NCBI GenBank assembly: GCA_016187385.1
Contig: JACPJU010000001.1
Span: 204,010 to 268,009 of the forward strand
Length of the DNA: 64,000 nucleotides
Direction: 5' to 3'
DNA from: Candidatus Aenigmatarchaeota archaeon
GTDB lineage: Archaea; Aenigmatarchaeota; Aenigmatarchaeia; CG10238-14; SCSR01
The notes below the pieces were generated by a model that did not search any database, was not told where the DNA came from, and was given only the letters and a program-made list of their open reading frames with translations. The position numbers and the translations under genes are program-made. Shown piece by piece: positions 4,991 to 8,722 of the stretch (position 1 is the stretch's first letter; each line of letters opens with the position of its first letter).

Positions 4991-6616
4991 TTGAGAATTT
5001 TAAAAGAAACCAGTGAAATTATGGCAGATAAAAACATAACAGCTGAGGATTTGGCCCATCAATTGAGAGCTGTCAGTGTAGCCGAATTCTTTGAAAAGAA
5101 CAGGCATTTGCTCGGCTACGAAAACCCGACGAAGGCATTGATAACAATCGTTAAGGAGCTTATGGACAATTCTCTTGATGCATGCGAAGAAGCGAGAATT
5201 TTGCCTGATATTAAAGTTTCGATTAAAGAAATTGCGCCTGAGAGATTCAAAGTTAAGGTTGAAGACAATGGTCCTGGGATTGTAGAAGAGAAATTGCCGC
5301 TCGCGTTCGGAAAATTATTATATGGTTCGAAATTCCACAGGCTGAAAATGAGTCGAGGTACTCAGGGTCTGGGCGCATCGGGCGCTATATTGTATTCCCA
5401 GTTGACAACCGGCAAGCCCTCAAAAATCGCGTCCAGCACCGGGAAAGAAATTCATGAGATAGAACTGATGATTGATGTCAATAAGAATGATCCAAAGATT
5501 GTTTCGCACAAAGAAGAAAAGAATTCTGGTAAATGGCACGGAATAAAAATTGAATTGGAAACCGAGGCGAGATACATAGAAGGCAAGCAATCTGTTTTTG
5601 AATATTTGAGACAAACCGCAATGTCGAATCCATATGCAAAAATAATTTACGATGGACCGAATGGCAAGGTTGAATTTGAAAGGGTGGTTAAAGAAATGCC
5701 GCCATTACCAAGAGAAATCAAGCCACACCCATACGGCGTTGAAATTGGATTGTTAAGGAGAATGCTTGCATCAACTAATGCGAGAAATTTAGTTGGATTT
5801 TTGACTTCGGATTTTTCAAGAGTTGGAAGAGGCACTGCACTGCAGATATGCAAGCTTGCAAAATTGGACACGGATAGAAAACCGCATGATTTAAGCCATG
5901 ACGAGATGGAAAAACTTCACAAGTCTATGCAGATGGTGAAATTAATAGGACCTCCCACTGATTGTTTGTCTCCTTTGAGCGAGAAACTTCTGGAGGAGGG
6001 ACTGCGAAAAGAGACCAAAGCTGAATTTGTTGTGGCTGTGACAAGACCACCAAGTGTTTACAGGGGTAATCCATTTCAAGTGGAGTGTGCTCTGGCTTTT
6101 GGAGGTGAATTACCAAAGGAAGGATCATCACAGTTGTTCAGGTTTGCAAACAAAGTTCCTTTGCTGTATCATGCCAGCGACTGCGCAACAACAGATGCTG
6201 TTGTAGACACTGACTGGAAAAGGTACGGATTTTCACAGTCTTCGGGTCAGCTGCCGCAGGGCCAGTTGGGAATATTTATTCATTTCGCATCGGTGTGGGT
6301 TCCTTATACATCGGAAGGCAAGCAGGCCATCGCAAGCTATCCTGAAATAGTCAAAGAAATGAAGCTCGCCCTGCAGGAAGCTGGTAGAAAGCTCGCTGTG
6401 TATGTCAGACAAAAAAATAGAATGCATGATAGACAAATGAGAAAAGAGTTGTTTGAGAAATACATACCAGAACTTGCAGAGTCGCTTGAGAAATTATCTG
6501 GCGACAAGAAAGAGAAGTTAATTGAAGCCTTGGAAAAAATTATTAAGAAAAGCGCTATAAAAAGTGAGGAGAATGAAAAAGAAGGAGACGGAAGAGAGCC
6601 TGAAAAAACTGGGTAA
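4991..6616 (+). CDS. top6B: DNA topoisomerase VI subunit B
   Basis: GHKL/Bergerat ATPase motif ELMDNSLDACEE and a G-rich ATP lid; 541 aa. Confidence 0.9.
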   Translation: MRILKETSEIMADKNITAEDLAHQLRAVSVAEFFEKNRHLLGYENPTKALITIVKELMDNSLDACEEARILPDIKVSIKEIAPERFKVKVEDNGPGIVEEKLPLAFGKLLYGSKFHRLKMSRGTQGLGASGAILYSQLTTGKPSKIASSTGKEIHEIELMIDVNKNDPKIVSHKEEKNSGKWHGIKIELETEARYIEGKQSVFEYLRQTAMSNPYAKIIYDGPNGKVEFERVVKEMPPLPREIKPHPYGVEIGLLRRMLASTNARNLVGFLTSDFSRVGRGTALQICKLAKLDTDRKPHDLSHDEMEKLHKSMQMVKLIGPPTDCLSPLSEKLLEEGLRKETKAEFVVAVTRPPSVYRGNPFQVECALAFGGELPKEGSSQLFRFANKVPLLYHASDCATTDAVVDTDWKRYGFSQSSGQLPQGQLGIFIHFASVWVPYTSEGKQAIASYPEIVKEMKLALQEAGRKLAVYVRQKNRMHDRQMRKELFEKYIPELAESLEKLSGDKKEKLIEALEKIIKKSAIKSEENEKEGDGREPEKTG

Positions 6617-7655
6617 GAAGCTGGCTACGGAAATCTCGAAAGGCGAGAACCCTTCGCTAGAAGTACCTATAAGGACATTGTCCAATATCAAGTACGACCC
6701 CCATCATAAAATGATCAAGATGGGTAGCAACGTAGCTACACGTTATTTCTTCAATGTTGGTCATGTCAGGAAATTTGTCCAGACTGTCGAGGCTGCGGCA
6801 CTTGCTAAGGAATTGAACGGTATGGGAAAACATCTCAGCCTAAGAGAAGCTTTCTACCGAATGAAAAGAACTCTGCCCGATTCCAACATTAATCTTGTTG
6901 ATGAGCAGGAAGAATCTAATGAAGCTATAGAAGATTTGGAATTAATAACGGATACTTCACGAGAACAGTTACATATTAATGCAAACAAGATGGGTTCAGT
7001 TGCCGGTAAAATAGTTATAGAAGATGGTGGTGATATAATAGACTGGTCGAAAATGGGCAGCGGAGGTTATTCATTACCTTCAAATGTCGAAGATATAATT
7101 TTCAAAAAAGTCAATGCGAAATTTATAATATATATGGAAAAGGCGGCTGAGTGGGAGAGACTCAATGAAGATCGTGTATGGGAAAAGTTGGATTGTGTTA
7201 TAATCTCTAGCCAAGGTCAAGCTACTAGAGGTGTTAGGAGAATATTACAAAGACTGCATTTGGAGCATAGATTACCAGTTTATGTTTTGGTCGATAATGA
7301 TCCTTGGGGTTTTTACATCTATTCTGTTTTAAAGTTTGGTTCAATTAGCCTTGCACACATATCAGAAAAATTGGCGATACCAGACGCTAAATTAATAGGA
7401 TTGACTGTTGACGATGTGATTAAATACGACCTTAAAAAACATTTAATAAAGTTTGAAGATGTTGATTTTAAGAGACTTGAACAAATCAGCAACTATGAGT
7501 GGTTCAAAAATAGCAAAGAATGGCAAAGACAATTTAAAATGATGAAAGAAATGAAAAGCAAGGTTGAATTGGCTGCTCTATCATCAAAAGGCATTACTTT
7601 CATATCAGATACCTACCTACCAGAAAAGATAAAGAAAAAGGATTTCCTAGATTAG
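6564..7655 (+). CDS. top6A: DNA topoisomerase VI subunit A (Spo11-like)
   Basis: Toprim motif YVLVDNDPWGFYIYSVLKFGS. Overlaps the top6B 3' end by 53 nt in another frame; the true start may be an internal Met. Confidence 0.9.
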   Translation: MRRMKKKETEESLKKLGKKLATEISKGENPSLEVPIRTLSNIKYDPHHKMIKMGSNVATRYFFNVGHVRKFVQTVEAAALAKELNGMGKHLSLREAFYRMKRTLPDSNINLVDEQEESNEAIEDLELITDTSREQLHINANKMGSVAGKIVIEDGGDIIDWSKMGSGGYSLPSNVEDIIFKKVNAKFIIYMEKAAEWERLNEDRVWEKLDCVIISSQGQATRGVRRILQRLHLEHRLPVYVLVDNDPWGFYIYSVLKFGSISLAHISEKLAIPDAKLIGLTVDDVIKYDLKKHLIKFEDVDFKRLEQISNYEWFKNSKEWQRQFKMMKEMKSKVELAALSSKGITFISDTYLPEKIKKKDFLD

Positions 7656-7683
7656 ATATTGTATAGGAATAAGGTTGTATAGT

Positions 7684-7693
7684 TTTATATTTA
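7684..7693 (+). promoter_or_regulatory. Candidate archaeal TATA box upstream of LAGLIDADG gene
   Basis: ttttatattt about 20-29 nt upstream of the ATG at 7713, consistent with leaderless archaeal transcription. Confidence 0.3.
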
Positions 7694-7712
7694 CTCTAGA
7701 GATTTATACATT

Positions 7713-8366
7713 ATGTTAAAAGAAGTTTCCAGTAGATTGAAAGAATATAATATTTTCCATAAAATTGAAAATGGATTCTTAGTAACTAGGAAGACAAGAG
7801 TAAAAATACCCCCCATTTCATCTAAAGTAAGTTATTTGACAGGTGTATTAACTGGAGATGGTAATCTCACGATGGTAAAAAGAATGAAAGGGGGTTTTCA
7901 TTACACTGTTAAAATAACGTCAAATTCAACAGACTATTTAAACTATCTGAATACTAGATTTAGAGAATTGTTTTCAATCAAAGGCGAAATTGGAAAGGAT
8001 AACAGAAAGATGAACACATTTTTTCTGATATTCAGAAATGTTTGCATTTTTTGGTATTTTGTAACCGTTGGTCTATGCATTGGAAGAAAAATAAATCCTT
8101 CAATACCACATAAAATTAGAACAAACAGAAAATTTTTAATTACTTACCTAAGTGGATTAGTGGATACAGATGGTCATATTAACCGTAATAGAATACAGCT
8201 AAAACAGAAAAGCAAAAGTTTTTTGGAAGAGATTAAGCAAGCACTCAAGCTATTTAAATTATCGCCTACAGAGGTTAAAGTAAATTACACCAAGTCAATG
8301 CCCTATTATTATATAAGATTTGATAATAGATTATTTTGCTATAAAGTAGCCACAGTAGCTCAGTAG
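7713..8366 (+). CDS. LAGLIDADG homing endonuclease (two-motif, free-standing)
   Basis: Two LAGLIDADG-type motifs: LTGVLTGDGNL and YLSGLVDTDGHI, about 100 aa apart. The 3' end (KVATVAQ*) reads through the first 18 nt of the downstream tRNA. Confidence 0.8.
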   Translation: MLKEVSSRLKEYNIFHKIENGFLVTRKTRVKIPPISSKVSYLTGVLTGDGNLTMVKRMKGGFHYTVKITSNSTDYLNYLNTRFRELFSIKGEIGKDNRKMNTFFLIFRNVCIFWYFVTVGLCIGRKINPSIPHKIRTNRKFLITYLSGLVDTDGHINRNRIQLKQKSKSFLEEIKQALKLFKLSPTEVKVNYTKSMPYYYIRFDNRLFCYKVATVAQ

Positions 8367-8445
8367 GTAGAGCACCCGAAACAGTTGTGAACTGTTGGTG
8401 AACCTTGTAAGCGGAAGGTCGTGGGTTCAATTCCCACCTGTGGCT
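8349..8445 (+). tRNA. tRNA; best anticodon hairpin AACAG-UUGUGAA-CUGUU gives GUG (His). About 24 nt of extra sequence implies intron(s) at non-canonical positions
   Basis: Acceptor GCCACAG/CTGTGGC 7/7, D arm GCTC-AGTAGGTA-GAGC, T arm GTGGG-TTCAATT-CCCAC. Total 97 nt versus about 73 expected. The extra CCCGA lies before the anticodon stem. A 19-nt ACCTT-GTAAGCGG-AAGGT hairpin lies in the variable region. Confidence 0.5.
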
Positions 8446-8455
8446 TTGATTTTGT

Positions 8456-8689
8456 ATGACAAATTTGAGTACGAGTGGGGATGATGAGAAGAGGATTCAA
8501 TTAATGGTCGATAATATTCAGTTTTATTTAAATAGAAGAGGATTGGATTCCCCATACAATGAAAGTGAGTTATACCAATTAGTCCAAGATAAGTATTCTG
8601 AATTAAAAGGAAGATCAACAGTTGATAAATATTTGGATATTATAGTAGAGAGGATTATTATAGATAATCTTATGTCTGTTCGAAAATAA
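8456..8689 (+). CDS. Hypothetical small protein
   Basis: 77-aa ORF immediately 3' of the tRNA; no motif recognised. Confidence 0.3.
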   Translation: MTNLSTSGDDEKRIQLMVDNIQFYLNRRGLDSPYNESELYQLVQDKYSELKGRSTVDKYLDIIVERIIIDNLMSVRK

Positions 8690-8722
8690 AGCTTTTGTCC
8701 GAACTTTTATAATCAATTTTAT

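What the first reader, a model, noticed from the sequence alone, without database searches (positions are those of the whole stretch)
7713..8445. Free-standing LAGLIDADG homing endonuclease whose reading frame runs into a tRNA gene
The 217-aa ORF has two canonical motifs (LTGVLTGDG and LSGLVDTDGHI), so it is a monomeric double-motif enzyme like I-DmoI. It sits between top6A and a tRNA. Its last seven codons (KVATVAQ) plus the stop cover the tRNA acceptor and D stem (8349-8366). Archaeal LAGLIDADG genes are normally inside rRNA/tRNA introns or inteins. A free-standing copy abutting a tRNA suggests an intron- or mobile-element-derived insertion. The tRNA 5' end may have been rebuilt from the endonuclease gene's 3' end, or the reverse.
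Basis: seen in the sequence. Interest (0 to 1): 0.6.

Follow-up and report, generated by a model that had tools for sequence, protein, structure and literature searches.

The report
Homing endonuclease gene glued to tRNA-Thr
A selfish DNA-cutting enzyme gene sits directly in front of the tRNA-Thr(UGU) gene of this tiny archaeon and borrows its stop codon from the tRNA. It belongs to a seemingly undescribed set of such genes, each subgroup tied to one particular tRNA gene in ultrasmall archaea and bacteria.

Summary
ORF 7713-8366 encodes an intact 217-aa, two-motif LAGLIDADG protein with an I-DmoI-like fold. It runs 18 nt into a real tRNA gene (8349-8445). The tRNA is tRNA-Thr(UGU) with a 24-nt bulge-helix-bulge intron at position 30/31; ARAGORN's 'His' call is wrong.

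The overlap is not an oddity of this genome. All 21 distinct loci that encode a close homologue (42-54% identity; Aenigmarchaeota, Woese-/Pace-/Nanoarchaeia) have the gene next to tRNA-Thr(UGU), in at least six different gene neighbourhoods.

The gene is sporadic. Only 2 of 80 related S3Ae loci carry it, and 40 show the empty site. The window's closest Top6A relatives also lack it. Two backgrounds with about 100% identical flanks carry endonuclease alleles only 52% identical and different tRNA-Thr alleles, one of them chimeric. One copy is a pseudogene.

More distant LAGLIDADG clades are tied in the same way to tRNA-Val, tRNA-Gln and, in CPR bacteria, tRNA-Ser. Forty of 65 of those ORFs end inside the tRNA.

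Best reading: a free-standing homing endonuclease that spreads by gene conversion together with part of the adjacent tRNA gene. Cleavage activity and the target site are untested. I found no prior description.

The parts
7683..7692 (+). TATA-like box (TTTTATATTT) about 26 nt upstream of the ATG. This is a putative promoter giving a leaderless or near-leaderless endonuclease mRNA.
   Evidence: Read from the sequence. The promoter function is inferred from standard archaeal promoter geometry and was not tested.
7713..8366 (+). Free-standing LAGLIDADG homing endonuclease gene (217 aa), member of the tRNA-Thr(UGU)-linked clade.
   Evidence: ORF. Pfam LAGLIDADG_3 at 3e-11. Family alignment A1 with invariant D49 and D153. 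AF2 pLDDT 93.7. Foldseek matches I-DmoI and intein endonuclease domains at E 1e-8 to 1e-10. PDB profile search gives PI-PfuI 3e-12 and I-DmoI 6e-9.
7836..7862 (+). LAGLIDADG motif 1 (LTGVLTGDG, residues 42-50; catalytic D49).
   Evidence: G44, G48, D49 and G50 are invariant in 32 homologues.
8148..8180 (+). LAGLIDADG motif 2 (LSGLVDTDGHI, residues 146-156; catalytic D153).
   Evidence: G148, L149, D151, T152, D153 and G154 are invariant.
8349..8445 (+). tRNA-Thr(UGU) gene, 97 nt, carrying one intron.
   Evidence: Rfam tRNA at 53.3 bits. The spliced sequence matches tRNA-Thr(UGU) of relatives L169, L187 and L002. The fold shows the cloverleaf arms.
8349..8366 (+). 18-nt overlap. The last five codons (ATVAQ) and the TAG stop of the endonuclease ORF are tRNA nt 1-18.
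   Evidence: L187-L190 show the same arrangement, 'RYATVAQ*'.
8349..8378 (+). tRNA exon 1 (tRNA positions 1-30).
   Evidence: Worked out from the sequence and from comparison with intron-less and differently interrupted orthologues.
8379..8402 (+). 24-nt BHB intron at the non-canonical position 30/31. Its hairpin loop holds the GTG (8387-8389) that ARAGORN misread as an anticodon.
   Evidence: The MFE fold shows a 3-nt bulge (C29 G30 A) next to a helix (26-28 with 49-51 in the MFE; extendable by hand to a 4-bp CACC/GGUG helix) and the intron hairpin. L187 has the same intron with fully compensatory hairpin changes and conserved ends AAA...TTGGTGAA.
8403..8445 (+). tRNA exon 2 (positions 31-73); anticodon TGT at 8406-8408.

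Best explanation
The ORF is a free-standing homing endonuclease gene (HEG) that forms a compact two-gene cassette with the tRNA-Thr(UGU) gene.

Shown: it is an intact I-DmoI-type LAGLIDADG protein with both catalytic aspartates. Its family is always next to tRNA-Thr(UGU), whatever lies on the other side. The family is present in only a small minority of otherwise syntenic genomes, and those without it show the empty site (upstream gene, promoter, tRNA). Endonuclease alleles, together with the 5' two-thirds or all of the tRNA, have been exchanged between near-identical genomic backgrounds.

Inferred: the enzyme cuts endonuclease-less tRNA-Thr(UGU) loci within or at the 5' edge of the tRNA gene. 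Double-strand-break repair from an occupied allele then copies the HEG and co-converts the neighbouring tRNA sequence. This is 'intronless homing', as described for T4 Seg and Mob enzymes. The resident allele would escape self-cleavage because the insertion, a divergent tRNA sequence or an intron alters the site.

The run of the ORF into the tRNA follows from the insertion lying flush against tRNA +1. The reading frame continues until it meets a UAG supplied by conserved tRNA nucleotides (8-10, 13-15, or 16-18 as in this window).

Also inferred: with no spacer, the tRNA must be transcribed from a promoter inside the 3' end of the ORF, or be co-transcribed with it. In the second case RNase P cleavage at tRNA +1 would remove the last codons and the stop from the mRNA.
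For: Protein:
- Pfam LAGLIDADG_3.
- There are 34 invariant columns, including D49 and D153.
- PDB profile hits to PI-PfuI and I-DmoI; AF2 pLDDT 93.7; Foldseek I-DmoI TM 0.6-0.74.

Linkage:
- All 21 distinct loci have tRNA-Thr(UGU) adjacent. In 20 it lies from -56 to +37 nt after the ORF; in L020 it lies about 50 nt upstream.
- Upstream neighbours differ: Top6A, NMD3, S3Ae, an S51 peptidase and others.

Sporadic presence:
- 2 of 80 S3Ae loci carry the gene, and 40 have S3Ae followed within 225 nt or less by tRNA-Thr.
- No decayed copies lie in the larger gaps.
- About 16 loci were found among GTDB species representatives, and 17 representatives at E<=1e-30 out of 1.84 billion proteins.
- The window's closest Top6A relatives, L169 (86%) and L170 (84%), lack it, while the more distant L191 (76%) has a copy that is 52% identical.

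Exchange:
- L126 and L137 are about 100% identical over 1.1 kb upstream, with S3Ae 98.4% identical at the protein level. Their endonuclease ORFs are only 52-60% identical at the nucleotide level and 51.7% at the protein level. Their tRNA-Thr genes differ at 18 positions, while tRNA-Val 1.5 kb away is identical.
- The L126 endonuclease is closer to L019 (76%) and L026 (72%) than their S3Ae proteins are.
- The L126 tRNA is chimeric: its 5' two-thirds resemble the endonuclease-carrying L015, and its T arm resembles the endonuclease-less L156.
- L022 is a pseudogene with two frameshifts and DTDG changed to DTNG.

Generality:
- Sister clades are tied to tRNA-Val(GAC), tRNA-Gln(CUG) and tRNA-Ser(GCU), and protein clade matches tRNA identity.

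Composition:
- There is a GC dip to 0.28-0.31 over the gene against 0.39-0.44 in top6A/B.
Against: - No cleavage activity or target site has been shown.
- No consistent sequence difference separates occupied from empty tRNA alleles. The L010 tRNA (endonuclease-carrying) is 93% identical to that of L156 (endonuclease-less).
- In the window's own lineage there is no clean empty site. L169 and L170 have another gene between top6A and the tRNA.
- The family is unusually well conserved for a selfish gene. The endonuclease is often more similar between distant lineages than ribosomal protein S3Ae is, and only 1 of 21 copies is decayed. That would also fit a useful function.
- No family member was found on viral contigs, so no vector for transfer between lineages is known.
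- The low-GC region extends past the gene to about 9200.
Confidence: 0.75

Rival explanations
1. Domesticated LAGLIDADG protein. The gene would be a host factor inherited vertically with tRNA-Thr, for example a sequence-specific DNA-binding regulator of the tRNA gene in the manner of WhiA, or a helper of tRNA expression or processing. It would then have been lost repeatedly.
For: - Strong purifying selection, with 34 invariant columns and mean column identity 58%.
- Fixed position and orientation relative to the tRNA in two phyla.
- Retention in very small genomes, with few decayed copies.
- Endonuclease identity across distant lineages exceeds S3Ae identity.
Against: - It is absent from 78 of 80 close S3Ae loci, 40 of which have tRNA-Thr(UGU) in the same place without it, and from the window's nearest relatives.
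- Both catalytic aspartates are invariant, unlike WhiA-type domesticated proteins.
- Alleles only 52% identical occur in about 100% identical backgrounds, and the endonuclease and S3Ae trees disagree.
- A pseudogene copy exists.
Confidence: 0.12
2. Relic of an intron- or intein-encoded endonuclease. The ORF would once have sat inside a BHB or group I intron, or an intein, and been left free-standing after the host element was lost.
For: - The closest solved relatives are intron-encoded (I-DmoI, I-Tsp061I) or intein-borne (PI-PfuI, TliVMA).
- The adjacent tRNA does contain an intron.
- One distant relative, L056, lies beside a group I intron.
Against: - The tRNA is complete downstream of the ORF, with Rfam model positions 1-71 all matched. 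Its intron is 24 nt and holds no ORF.
- No Hint or intein domains are present, and the ORF has its own ATG.
- No Rfam intron model hits 7000-9500.
- All 21 family loci, and at least 56 of the 65 distant relatives, are likewise free-standing upstream of a complete tRNA.
Confidence: 0.05
3. Cargo of a larger integrative element, such as a virus or plasmid, that uses tRNA-Thr as its attachment site. The endonuclease would be a passenger.
For: - tRNA genes are classic integration sites in archaea (PMC3218864, PMC3293823).
- Two endonuclease-less loci, L156 and L149, carry orphan copies of the tRNA 5' end, which looks like an att-type duplication.
- A low-GC stretch extends from 7400 to 9200.
Against: - The difference between occupied and empty alleles is only about 750 bp, namely the ORF plus short flanks. 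Conserved genes lie on both sides, and there is no integrase.
- No significant orphan tRNA fragment lies upstream of the ORFs.
- No family member is found on IMG/VR contigs.
Confidence: 0.05

Closest known systems
I-DmoI (Desulfurococcus mobilis 23S rRNA intron endonuclease) and the endonuclease domains of PI-PfuI and the TliVMA intein
   Same: It is a monomeric LAGLIDADG enzyme with two motifs and two catalytic acidic residues. The fold is the same: Foldseek E 1e-8 to 1e-10, TM up to 0.74 on I-DmoI. The profile search gives 6e-9 for I-DmoI and 3e-12 for PI-PfuI.
   Different: It is not inside an intron or intein and is only about 20% identical. It has an extra N-terminal subdomain of about 39 aa and a conserved C-terminal beta-hairpin (KVNYTNxxPFYYIRFDN). 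Its genomic partner is a tRNA gene rather than rRNA or a protein-coding gene.
Phage T4 SegB, a free-standing GIY-YIG homing endonuclease in the T4 tRNA gene cluster (PMC2330249), and the other Seg/Mob 'intronless homing' enzymes (PMC2790892, PMC2988022)
   Same: It is a free-standing HEG lying among or next to tRNA genes. In T4 this causes preferential inheritance of the HEG plus flanking tRNA sequence by co-conversion. Here that outcome is inferred from chimeric and swapped tRNA alleles.
   Different: The nuclease family differs (LAGLIDADG rather than GIY-YIG or HNH). The host is a cellular genome of DPANN archaea or CPR bacteria, not a phage. The linkage is strict and one-to-one with a particular tRNA species, and the ORF is commonly fused onto the tRNA 5' end. 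Activity is untested here.
LAGLIDADG genes in rRNA insertions and group I introns of CPR bacteria and DPANN archaea (PMC11270868, PMC6125680), and HEGs inside tRNA group I introns of bacteria (PMC13011429)
   Same: The host groups are the same (ultrasmall, reduced genomes). The Pfam families are the same, and the targets are highly conserved RNA genes.
   Different: Those genes lie inside the RNA gene within a splicing element. This one lies outside the tRNA, immediately 5' of it. None of those papers mentions a free-standing tRNA-flanking form.
Mobile elements that integrate into archaeal tRNA genes and leave tRNA fragments (PMC3293823), and the Randau-Soll idea that tRNA introns and splits protect against such elements (as cited in PMC3218864)
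   Same: The tRNA gene acts as a target or anchor. Orphan tRNA 5' fragments are seen at two empty sites. The linked tRNA carries an unusual variety of intron positions.
   Different: There is no integrase or recombinase, and the element is a single endonuclease gene of about 0.7 kb. A protective role for the introns is only a hypothesis here.

Membership tests
LAGLIDADG homing endonucleases (monomeric, double-motif) | Two LAGLIDADG motifs, each ending in a conserved acidic catalytic residue | tested here: met
   The motifs are LTGVLTGDG (D49) and LSGLVDTDG (D153). Both aspartates are invariant in 32 homologues.
LAGLIDADG homing endonucleases (monomeric, double-motif) | Sequence-profile membership | tested here: met
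   Pfam LAGLIDADG_3 scores 43.8 bits against a cutoff of 22.5. The PDB profile search gives PI-PfuI 3e-12 and I-DmoI 6e-9.
LAGLIDADG homing endonucleases (monomeric, double-motif) | Tandem alpha-beta-beta-alpha-beta-beta-alpha fold forming a DNA-binding saddle | tested here: met
   The AF2 model has pLDDT 93.7 and pTM 0.90. Foldseek finds I-DmoI at rmsd 2.1-3.5 A and TM 0.6-0.74. This is a predicted structure only.
LAGLIDADG homing endonucleases (monomeric, double-motif) | Site-specific double-strand cleavage of a long (about 20 bp) target | not testable with these tools
   This needs protein expression and in vitro cleavage.
Free-standing homing endonuclease genes (intronless homing, T4 Seg/Mob type) | The gene lies in an intergenic position, not within an intron or intein | tested here: met
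   The ORF has its own start and lies between top6A and tRNA +1. The tRNA is complete downstream. No Hint domain and no intron RNA model were found.
Free-standing homing endonuclease genes (intronless homing, T4 Seg/Mob type) | Presence/absence polymorphism among close relatives, with a precise empty site | tested here: met
   L126 and L137 (occupied) and L156 (empty) share flanks that are 88-92% identical. Forty empty S3Ae-tRNA-Thr sites stand against 2 occupied ones. For the window's own lineage only a partial case exists (L169, L170).
Free-standing homing endonuclease genes (intronless homing, T4 Seg/Mob type) | Co-conversion of flanking host sequence with the endonuclease gene | tested here: met
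   tRNA-Thr differs at 15-18 positions among L126, L137 and L156, while tRNA-Val 1.5 kb away is identical. The L126 tRNA is chimeric. This is a pattern consistent with co-conversion; the process itself was not observed.
Free-standing homing endonuclease genes (intronless homing, T4 Seg/Mob type) | The enzyme cleaves the endonuclease-less allele near its own insertion point, and its own allele is immune | not testable with these tools
   No consistent sequence signature of immunity was found.
Archaeal intron-encoded endonucleases (I-DmoI/I-PorI type in BHB introns) | The ORF is located inside a BHB intron of an rRNA or tRNA gene | tested here: not met
   The ORF lies upstream of tRNA position 1. 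The only intron (8379-8402) is 24 nt.
Intein-associated endonucleases | The endonuclease domain is flanked by Hint splicing blocks within a host protein | tested here: not met
   The protein is 217 aa with its own ATG and has no intein or Hint Pfam hit.
WhiA-like domesticated LAGLIDADG DNA-binding proteins | Loss of the catalytic acidic residues together with an added C-terminal HTH domain | tested here: not met
   The catalytic aspartates are invariant. The window protein has no LAGLIDADG_WhiA hit at E<=0.1, and no C-terminal HTH is seen.
tRNA-Thr(UGU) with an archaeal BHB intron | Cloverleaf recognised by a covariance model, and a UGU anticodon in a 7-nt loop after splicing | tested here: met
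   Rfam scores 53.3 bits. The spliced sequence ...CCCGC CUUGUAA GCGGA... matches the orthologues L169 and L187. A C27-A43 mismatch is present, and it is shared with L002.
tRNA-Thr(UGU) with an archaeal BHB intron | Bulge-helix-bulge motif at the splice sites | tested here: met
   The MFE fold shows the 3-nt bulge C29 G30 A beside a 3-bp helix (26-28 with 49-51) and the intron hairpin. By hand this helix extends to a 4-bp CACC/GGUG helix, with a second 3-nt bulge (A A C31) on the other strand, which the MFE does not show as such. L187 keeps the motif through compensatory hairpin changes. Splicing itself was not shown.

The most novel reading that the evidence does not exclude
DPANN archaea and CPR bacteria host a whole superfamily of free-standing LAGLIDADG endonucleases, and each clade recognises one particular tRNA gene: Thr-UGU, Val-GAC, Gln-CUG, Ser-GCU and others. 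These enzymes repeatedly overwrite tRNA alleles by gene conversion. Their pressure is what selects for the odd, non-canonical intron positions (25-31) and the rapid stem turnover seen in the linked tRNAs. In other words, tRNA introns would act as immunity against tRNA-targeting endonucleases. That would be a concrete, testable form of the Randau-Soll protection hypothesis.
Probability: 0.3. Interest if true: 0.9.

Novelty: new variant of a known kind. Interest (0 to 1): 0.7.

Why it matters
Free-standing homing endonucleases are well studied in phages and organelles, and archaeal LAGLIDADG enzymes are known from rRNA introns and inteins. I found no description of a cellular family that is welded to the 5' end of a specific tRNA gene, with sister clades on other tRNAs in both DPANN archaea and CPR bacteria.

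If the mechanism holds, several things follow:
- It explains a recurrent annotation oddity, protein ORFs that 'run into' tRNA genes in these genomes.
- It identifies a force that swaps alleles of essential tRNA genes between strains.
- It provides natural enzymes with long recognition sites in tRNA genes.
- It makes a long-standing question testable: why archaeal tRNA genes carry introns at so many positions. The test is to ask whether the intron-bearing allele resists the linked enzyme.

Tried and rejected
- ARAGORN anticodon calls for intron-bearing tRNAs (His, Phe, Val, Ala, Asn, 'Stop' and others) were rejected. Inspection of the exons shows CUUGUAA loops, which means Thr-UGU.
- I searched for orphan tRNA 5' fragments upstream of the endonuclease ORFs, as expected if the cassette had inserted inside the tRNA. 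Nothing was significant against shuffles. A conserved 5' element, TTTACAGTTCAGACGCTCTAAAAATG, sits where tRNA +1 lies in empty sites, but its resemblance to tRNA nt 9-15 is too weak to call.
- The 48- and 60-nt inserts between the orphan fragments and the real tRNA in L156 and L149 match nothing in any fetched locus.
- An IMG/VR scan for a viral carrier found only distant (<=46%, partial) LAGLIDADG hits.
- A profile HMM found no decayed endonuclease copies in S3Ae loci with 360-830-nt gaps. Those gaps hold unrelated genes.
- Introns are more frequent in endonuclease-linked tRNA-Thr (13 of 20 against 17 of about 62), and 25-31 positions are enriched. The two samples come from different clades, and within the L010-like clade the three occupied alleles are intron-less. 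I therefore treat this as a lead, not a result.
- The different 327-aa LAGLIDADG protein next to tRNA-Thr in L170 shows no profile relation to this family beyond the motif.
- No curated NCBIfam model exists for the family.
- Four literature searches found no description of the arrangement.
Full report
**1. What is in the window**

The window comes from a Candidatus Aenigmarchaeota MAG. The protein is identical to HYW24_01385, encoded on a 786-kb contig.

ORF 7713-8366 (+) starts with ATG, encodes 217 aa and ends in TAG. It carries the motifs LTGVLTGDG (residues 42-50) and LSGLVDTDGHI (146-156). It matches Pfam LAGLIDADG_3 above threshold. The gene upstream, 6564-7655, is top6A.

Rfam places a tRNA at 8349-8445 with 53.3 bits. 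The ORF and the tRNA therefore share 8349-8366. The one correction is that five codons plus the stop lie in the tRNA, not seven.

**2. The tRNA**

ARAGORN calls it His(GUG). That GTG (8387-8389) is the loop of an intron hairpin. The exons are 8349-8378 and 8403-8445. When joined they give a 73-nt tRNA with the anticodon loop CUUGUAA, which is Thr(UGU).

The 24-nt intron (8379-8402) lies between positions 30 and 31. In the MFE fold the 5' splice site sits in a 3-nt bulge (C29 G30 A) next to a short helix (26-28 with 49-51) and the intron hairpin. By hand that helix extends to a 4-bp CACC/GGUG helix. The 3' splice site then falls in a matching 3-nt bulge on the other strand.

Relatives support this reading:
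- L187 has the same exons and the same intron ends (AAA...TTGGTGAA), with a completely different but still complementary hairpin.
- L169, an endonuclease-free relative, has the same first 26 nt and a canonical 37/38 intron instead.

The tRNA 5' end is therefore native. The ORF reads into it and stops at the D-loop UAG.

**3. The protein**

Thirty-two homologues of about 217 aa align over their full length at 42-54% identity to the window protein. There are 34 invariant columns, including both catalytic aspartates and a C-terminal block KVNYTNxxPFYYIRFDN.

A profile of the family hits PI-PfuI (3e-12) and I-DmoI (6e-9) among solved structures. AlphaFold gives pLDDT 93.7. Foldseek's best matches are intein endonuclease domains and I-DmoI, with TM up to 0.74. 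No intein or Hint domain is present, and no curated NCBIfam model matches.

**4. The linkage is the rule**

Every locus that encodes a close homologue has tRNA-Thr(UGU) beside the ORF:
- Window, L002, L004/L009, L010, L011-L019, L021, L022 and L026.
- L126 and L137.
- L187-L190 and L191.
- In L020 the tRNA-Thr lies about 50 nt upstream instead.

That makes 21 distinct loci. The gap between ORF end and tRNA start runs from -56 to +37 nt, and eight ORFs end inside the tRNA.

The other neighbour varies: top6A (window, L191), NMD3 on the opposite strand (L002), ribosomal protein S3Ae (12 Woese-/Pacearchaeota loci), an S51 peptidase (L010, L018) and others. The gene is therefore tied to the tRNA and not to a chromosomal region.

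**5. Sporadic presence and empty sites**

A metagenome scan with the S3Ae neighbour returned 80 loci.
- Two carry the endonuclease.
- Forty have tRNA-Thr(UGU) on the same strand within 225 nt of S3Ae, with no room for it.
- Twelve with larger gaps hold unrelated genes and no decayed copy.

Among GTDB species representatives only about 16 loci were found. In 1.84 billion representative proteins, 17 score E<=1e-30.

In the window's own lineage, the closest Top6A relatives are L169 (86%) and L170 (84%). Both have tRNA-Thr(UGU) downstream of top6A but lack this gene. The more distant L191 (76%) has top6A, a 52%-identical copy, the tRNA and the same Lit-like gene further on.

**6. Evidence of exchange**

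L126 and L137 both carry the gene. They are about 100% identical over 1.1 kb upstream, and their S3Ae proteins are 98.4% identical. Inside the endonuclease ORF they drop to 52-60% nucleotide identity and 51.7% protein identity. Their tRNA-Thr genes differ at 18 positions. L156, which lacks the gene, differs from them at 15-16 positions. All three share an identical tRNA-Val 1.5 kb away.

The L126 tRNA has the 5' two-thirds of the allele found next to the L015 endonuclease and the T arm of the local empty allele. That is what a co-conversion tract ending inside the tRNA would look like.

Endonuclease similarity does not follow S3Ae similarity (Spearman 0.29; for example L126-L019 are 76% against 71%).

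L022 is a decaying copy with two frameshifts and DTDG changed to DTNG.

**7. A wider pattern**

The genome scan also returned 65 more distant LAGLIDADG relatives (24-36% identity). At least 56 of them have a same-strand tRNA gene just downstream of the match (two more found). Forty of these ORFs end inside the tRNA, typically with the stop at tRNA nt 8-10 or 13-15.

Clustering the proteins reproduces tRNA identity:
- an approximately 350-aa clade on tRNA-Val(GAC);
- an approximately 300-aa clade on tRNA-Gln(CUG);
- an approximately 333-aa clade in CPR bacteria on tRNA-Ser(GCU);
- singletons on Pro, Gly and Glu.

Representatives all match LAGLIDADG_3. A clade-to-tRNA correspondence across unrelated neighbourhoods is hard to explain unless the proteins recognise the tRNA gene sequence itself.

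**8. Mechanism**

The best-supported reading is a free-standing homing endonuclease that spreads by double-strand-break repair and drags adjacent tRNA sequence with it. This is what has been shown for T4 SegB in the phage tRNA cluster (PMC2330249).

Several steps are inferred and not shown:
- that the protein cuts DNA;
- that its site lies in or at the 5' edge of the tRNA gene;
- that occupied alleles are immune;
- that the tRNA in overlap cases is transcribed from within the ORF 3' end or co-transcribed with it.

A TATA-like box lies at 7683-7692, about 26 nt before the ATG. It would give a leaderless mRNA (inference).

**9. Rivals**

- A domesticated DNA-binding protein would fit the strong conservation. 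It does not fit the patchy distribution, the intact catalytic residues or the swapped alleles.
- An intron or intein relic is contradicted by the architecture in all loci.
- A larger integrative element is contradicted by the 0.7-kb presence/absence difference and the lack of an integrase.

**10. Prior knowledge**

Searches for LAGLIDADG with tRNA, DPANN, CPR or free-standing found work on rRNA insertions, archaeal group I introns and tRNA group I introns (PMC11270868, PMC6125680, PMC13011429). None describes a free-standing tRNA-flanking family.

The idea that tRNA introns protect against mobile elements is old (cited in PMC3218864). These cassettes would make it testable. The apparent enrichment of 25-31 introns in linked tRNAs is confounded by lineage and remains a lead.

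**11. Verdict**

The feature is an instance of an apparently undescribed, widespread architecture. It is a new variant of a known kind. Interest is 0.7.

Noticed in passing
L023-L088 (loci): At least 56 of 65 distant LAGLIDADG relatives, from DPANN archaea and CPR bacteria, have a same-strand tRNA gene just downstream (58 when L081 and L085 are added). Protein clades match tRNA identity: Val-GAC, Gln-CUG, Ser-GCU and others. Forty of the ORFs terminate inside the tRNA at nt 8-10 or 13-15.
   Followed up: partly
L170 4078-5061 (-) and L169 3541-4419 (-): In the window's closest Top6A relatives, a different double-motif LAGLIDADG protein lies between top6A and tRNA-Thr(UGU) on the opposite strand. 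It is 327 aa with motifs LGLYVADG and LRGHFAADGG, and the L169 copy is N-terminally truncated. This suggests the same spot was invaded independently.
   Followed up: partly
L156 3610-3630 and L149 575-588: Two endonuclease-less loci carry an orphan copy of the tRNA-Thr 5' end, 21 nt and 14 nt long. It sits at the native +1 position and is followed by 48-60 nt of unmatched, GC-richer DNA and then the complete tRNA. This may be a scar of a past insertion or a failed repair within the D arm.
   Followed up: partly
L126 2195-2227, L137, L019, L026, L022, L015, L014 (just upstream of the endonuclease ATG): A conserved element of about 25 nt, TTTACAGTTCAGACGCTCTAAAAATG, lies immediately before the start codon in Woese-/Pacearchaeota copies. 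It begins exactly where tRNA +1 lies in empty sites. Its function is unknown; it could be a 5' UTR, a remnant of the tRNA D arm, or part of the homing site.
   Followed up: no
window 9338-9446 (+): This is a second intron-containing tRNA, scoring 46.9 bits in Rfam. It is probably Trp(CCA) with a 36-nt canonical intron that contains CTGA and ATGATG box-like words. ARAGORN missed it, and so did the default-filter Rfam run over the whole window.
   Followed up: partly
L091 vs L092/L096/L101; L101/L096/L092 vs L103: Even among endonuclease-less genomes with identical or nearly identical tRNA-Val (0-3 differences), tRNA-Thr(UGU) can differ at 8-10 positions in the D loop and T arm. The locus seems to change alleles unusually fast.
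   Followed up: no
L018 1441-1734 (-), L021 2707-2979 (-), L107, L108, L117, L127, L155: The N-terminal region of about 100 aa of the tRNA-Val-linked LAGLIDADG clade gives weak HTH hits. It also occurs as a stand-alone ORF of about 95 aa. In L018 this ORF lies next to a tRNA gene (1286-1357, typed as tRNA-Val(GAC) by ARAGORN), in a locus lacking that endonuclease; in L021 it lies beside tRNA-Val(GAC). It could be a leftover domain, or a host gene to which the endonuclease became fused.
   Followed up: partly
L191 1609-1694; also L123, L142, L148, L159, L166, L167: Several tRNA-Thr(UGU) genes have C instead of the near-universal U at position 33. Their anticodon loop reads CCUGUAA.
   Followed up: no
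L056 3806-4797: In one MAG labelled as bacterial, the LAGLIDADG ORF overlaps a group I intron (Rfam 56.7 bits) within a tRNA cluster. This is a different, intron-associated arrangement.
   Followed up: no
window 7400-9200: There is a GC dip to 0.28-0.31 against 0.39-0.44 in the flanks. It covers the endonuclease gene, the tRNA, a 77-aa ORF (8456-8689) with no family hit, and a Lit-like membrane protein gene (8723-9313).
   Followed up: no
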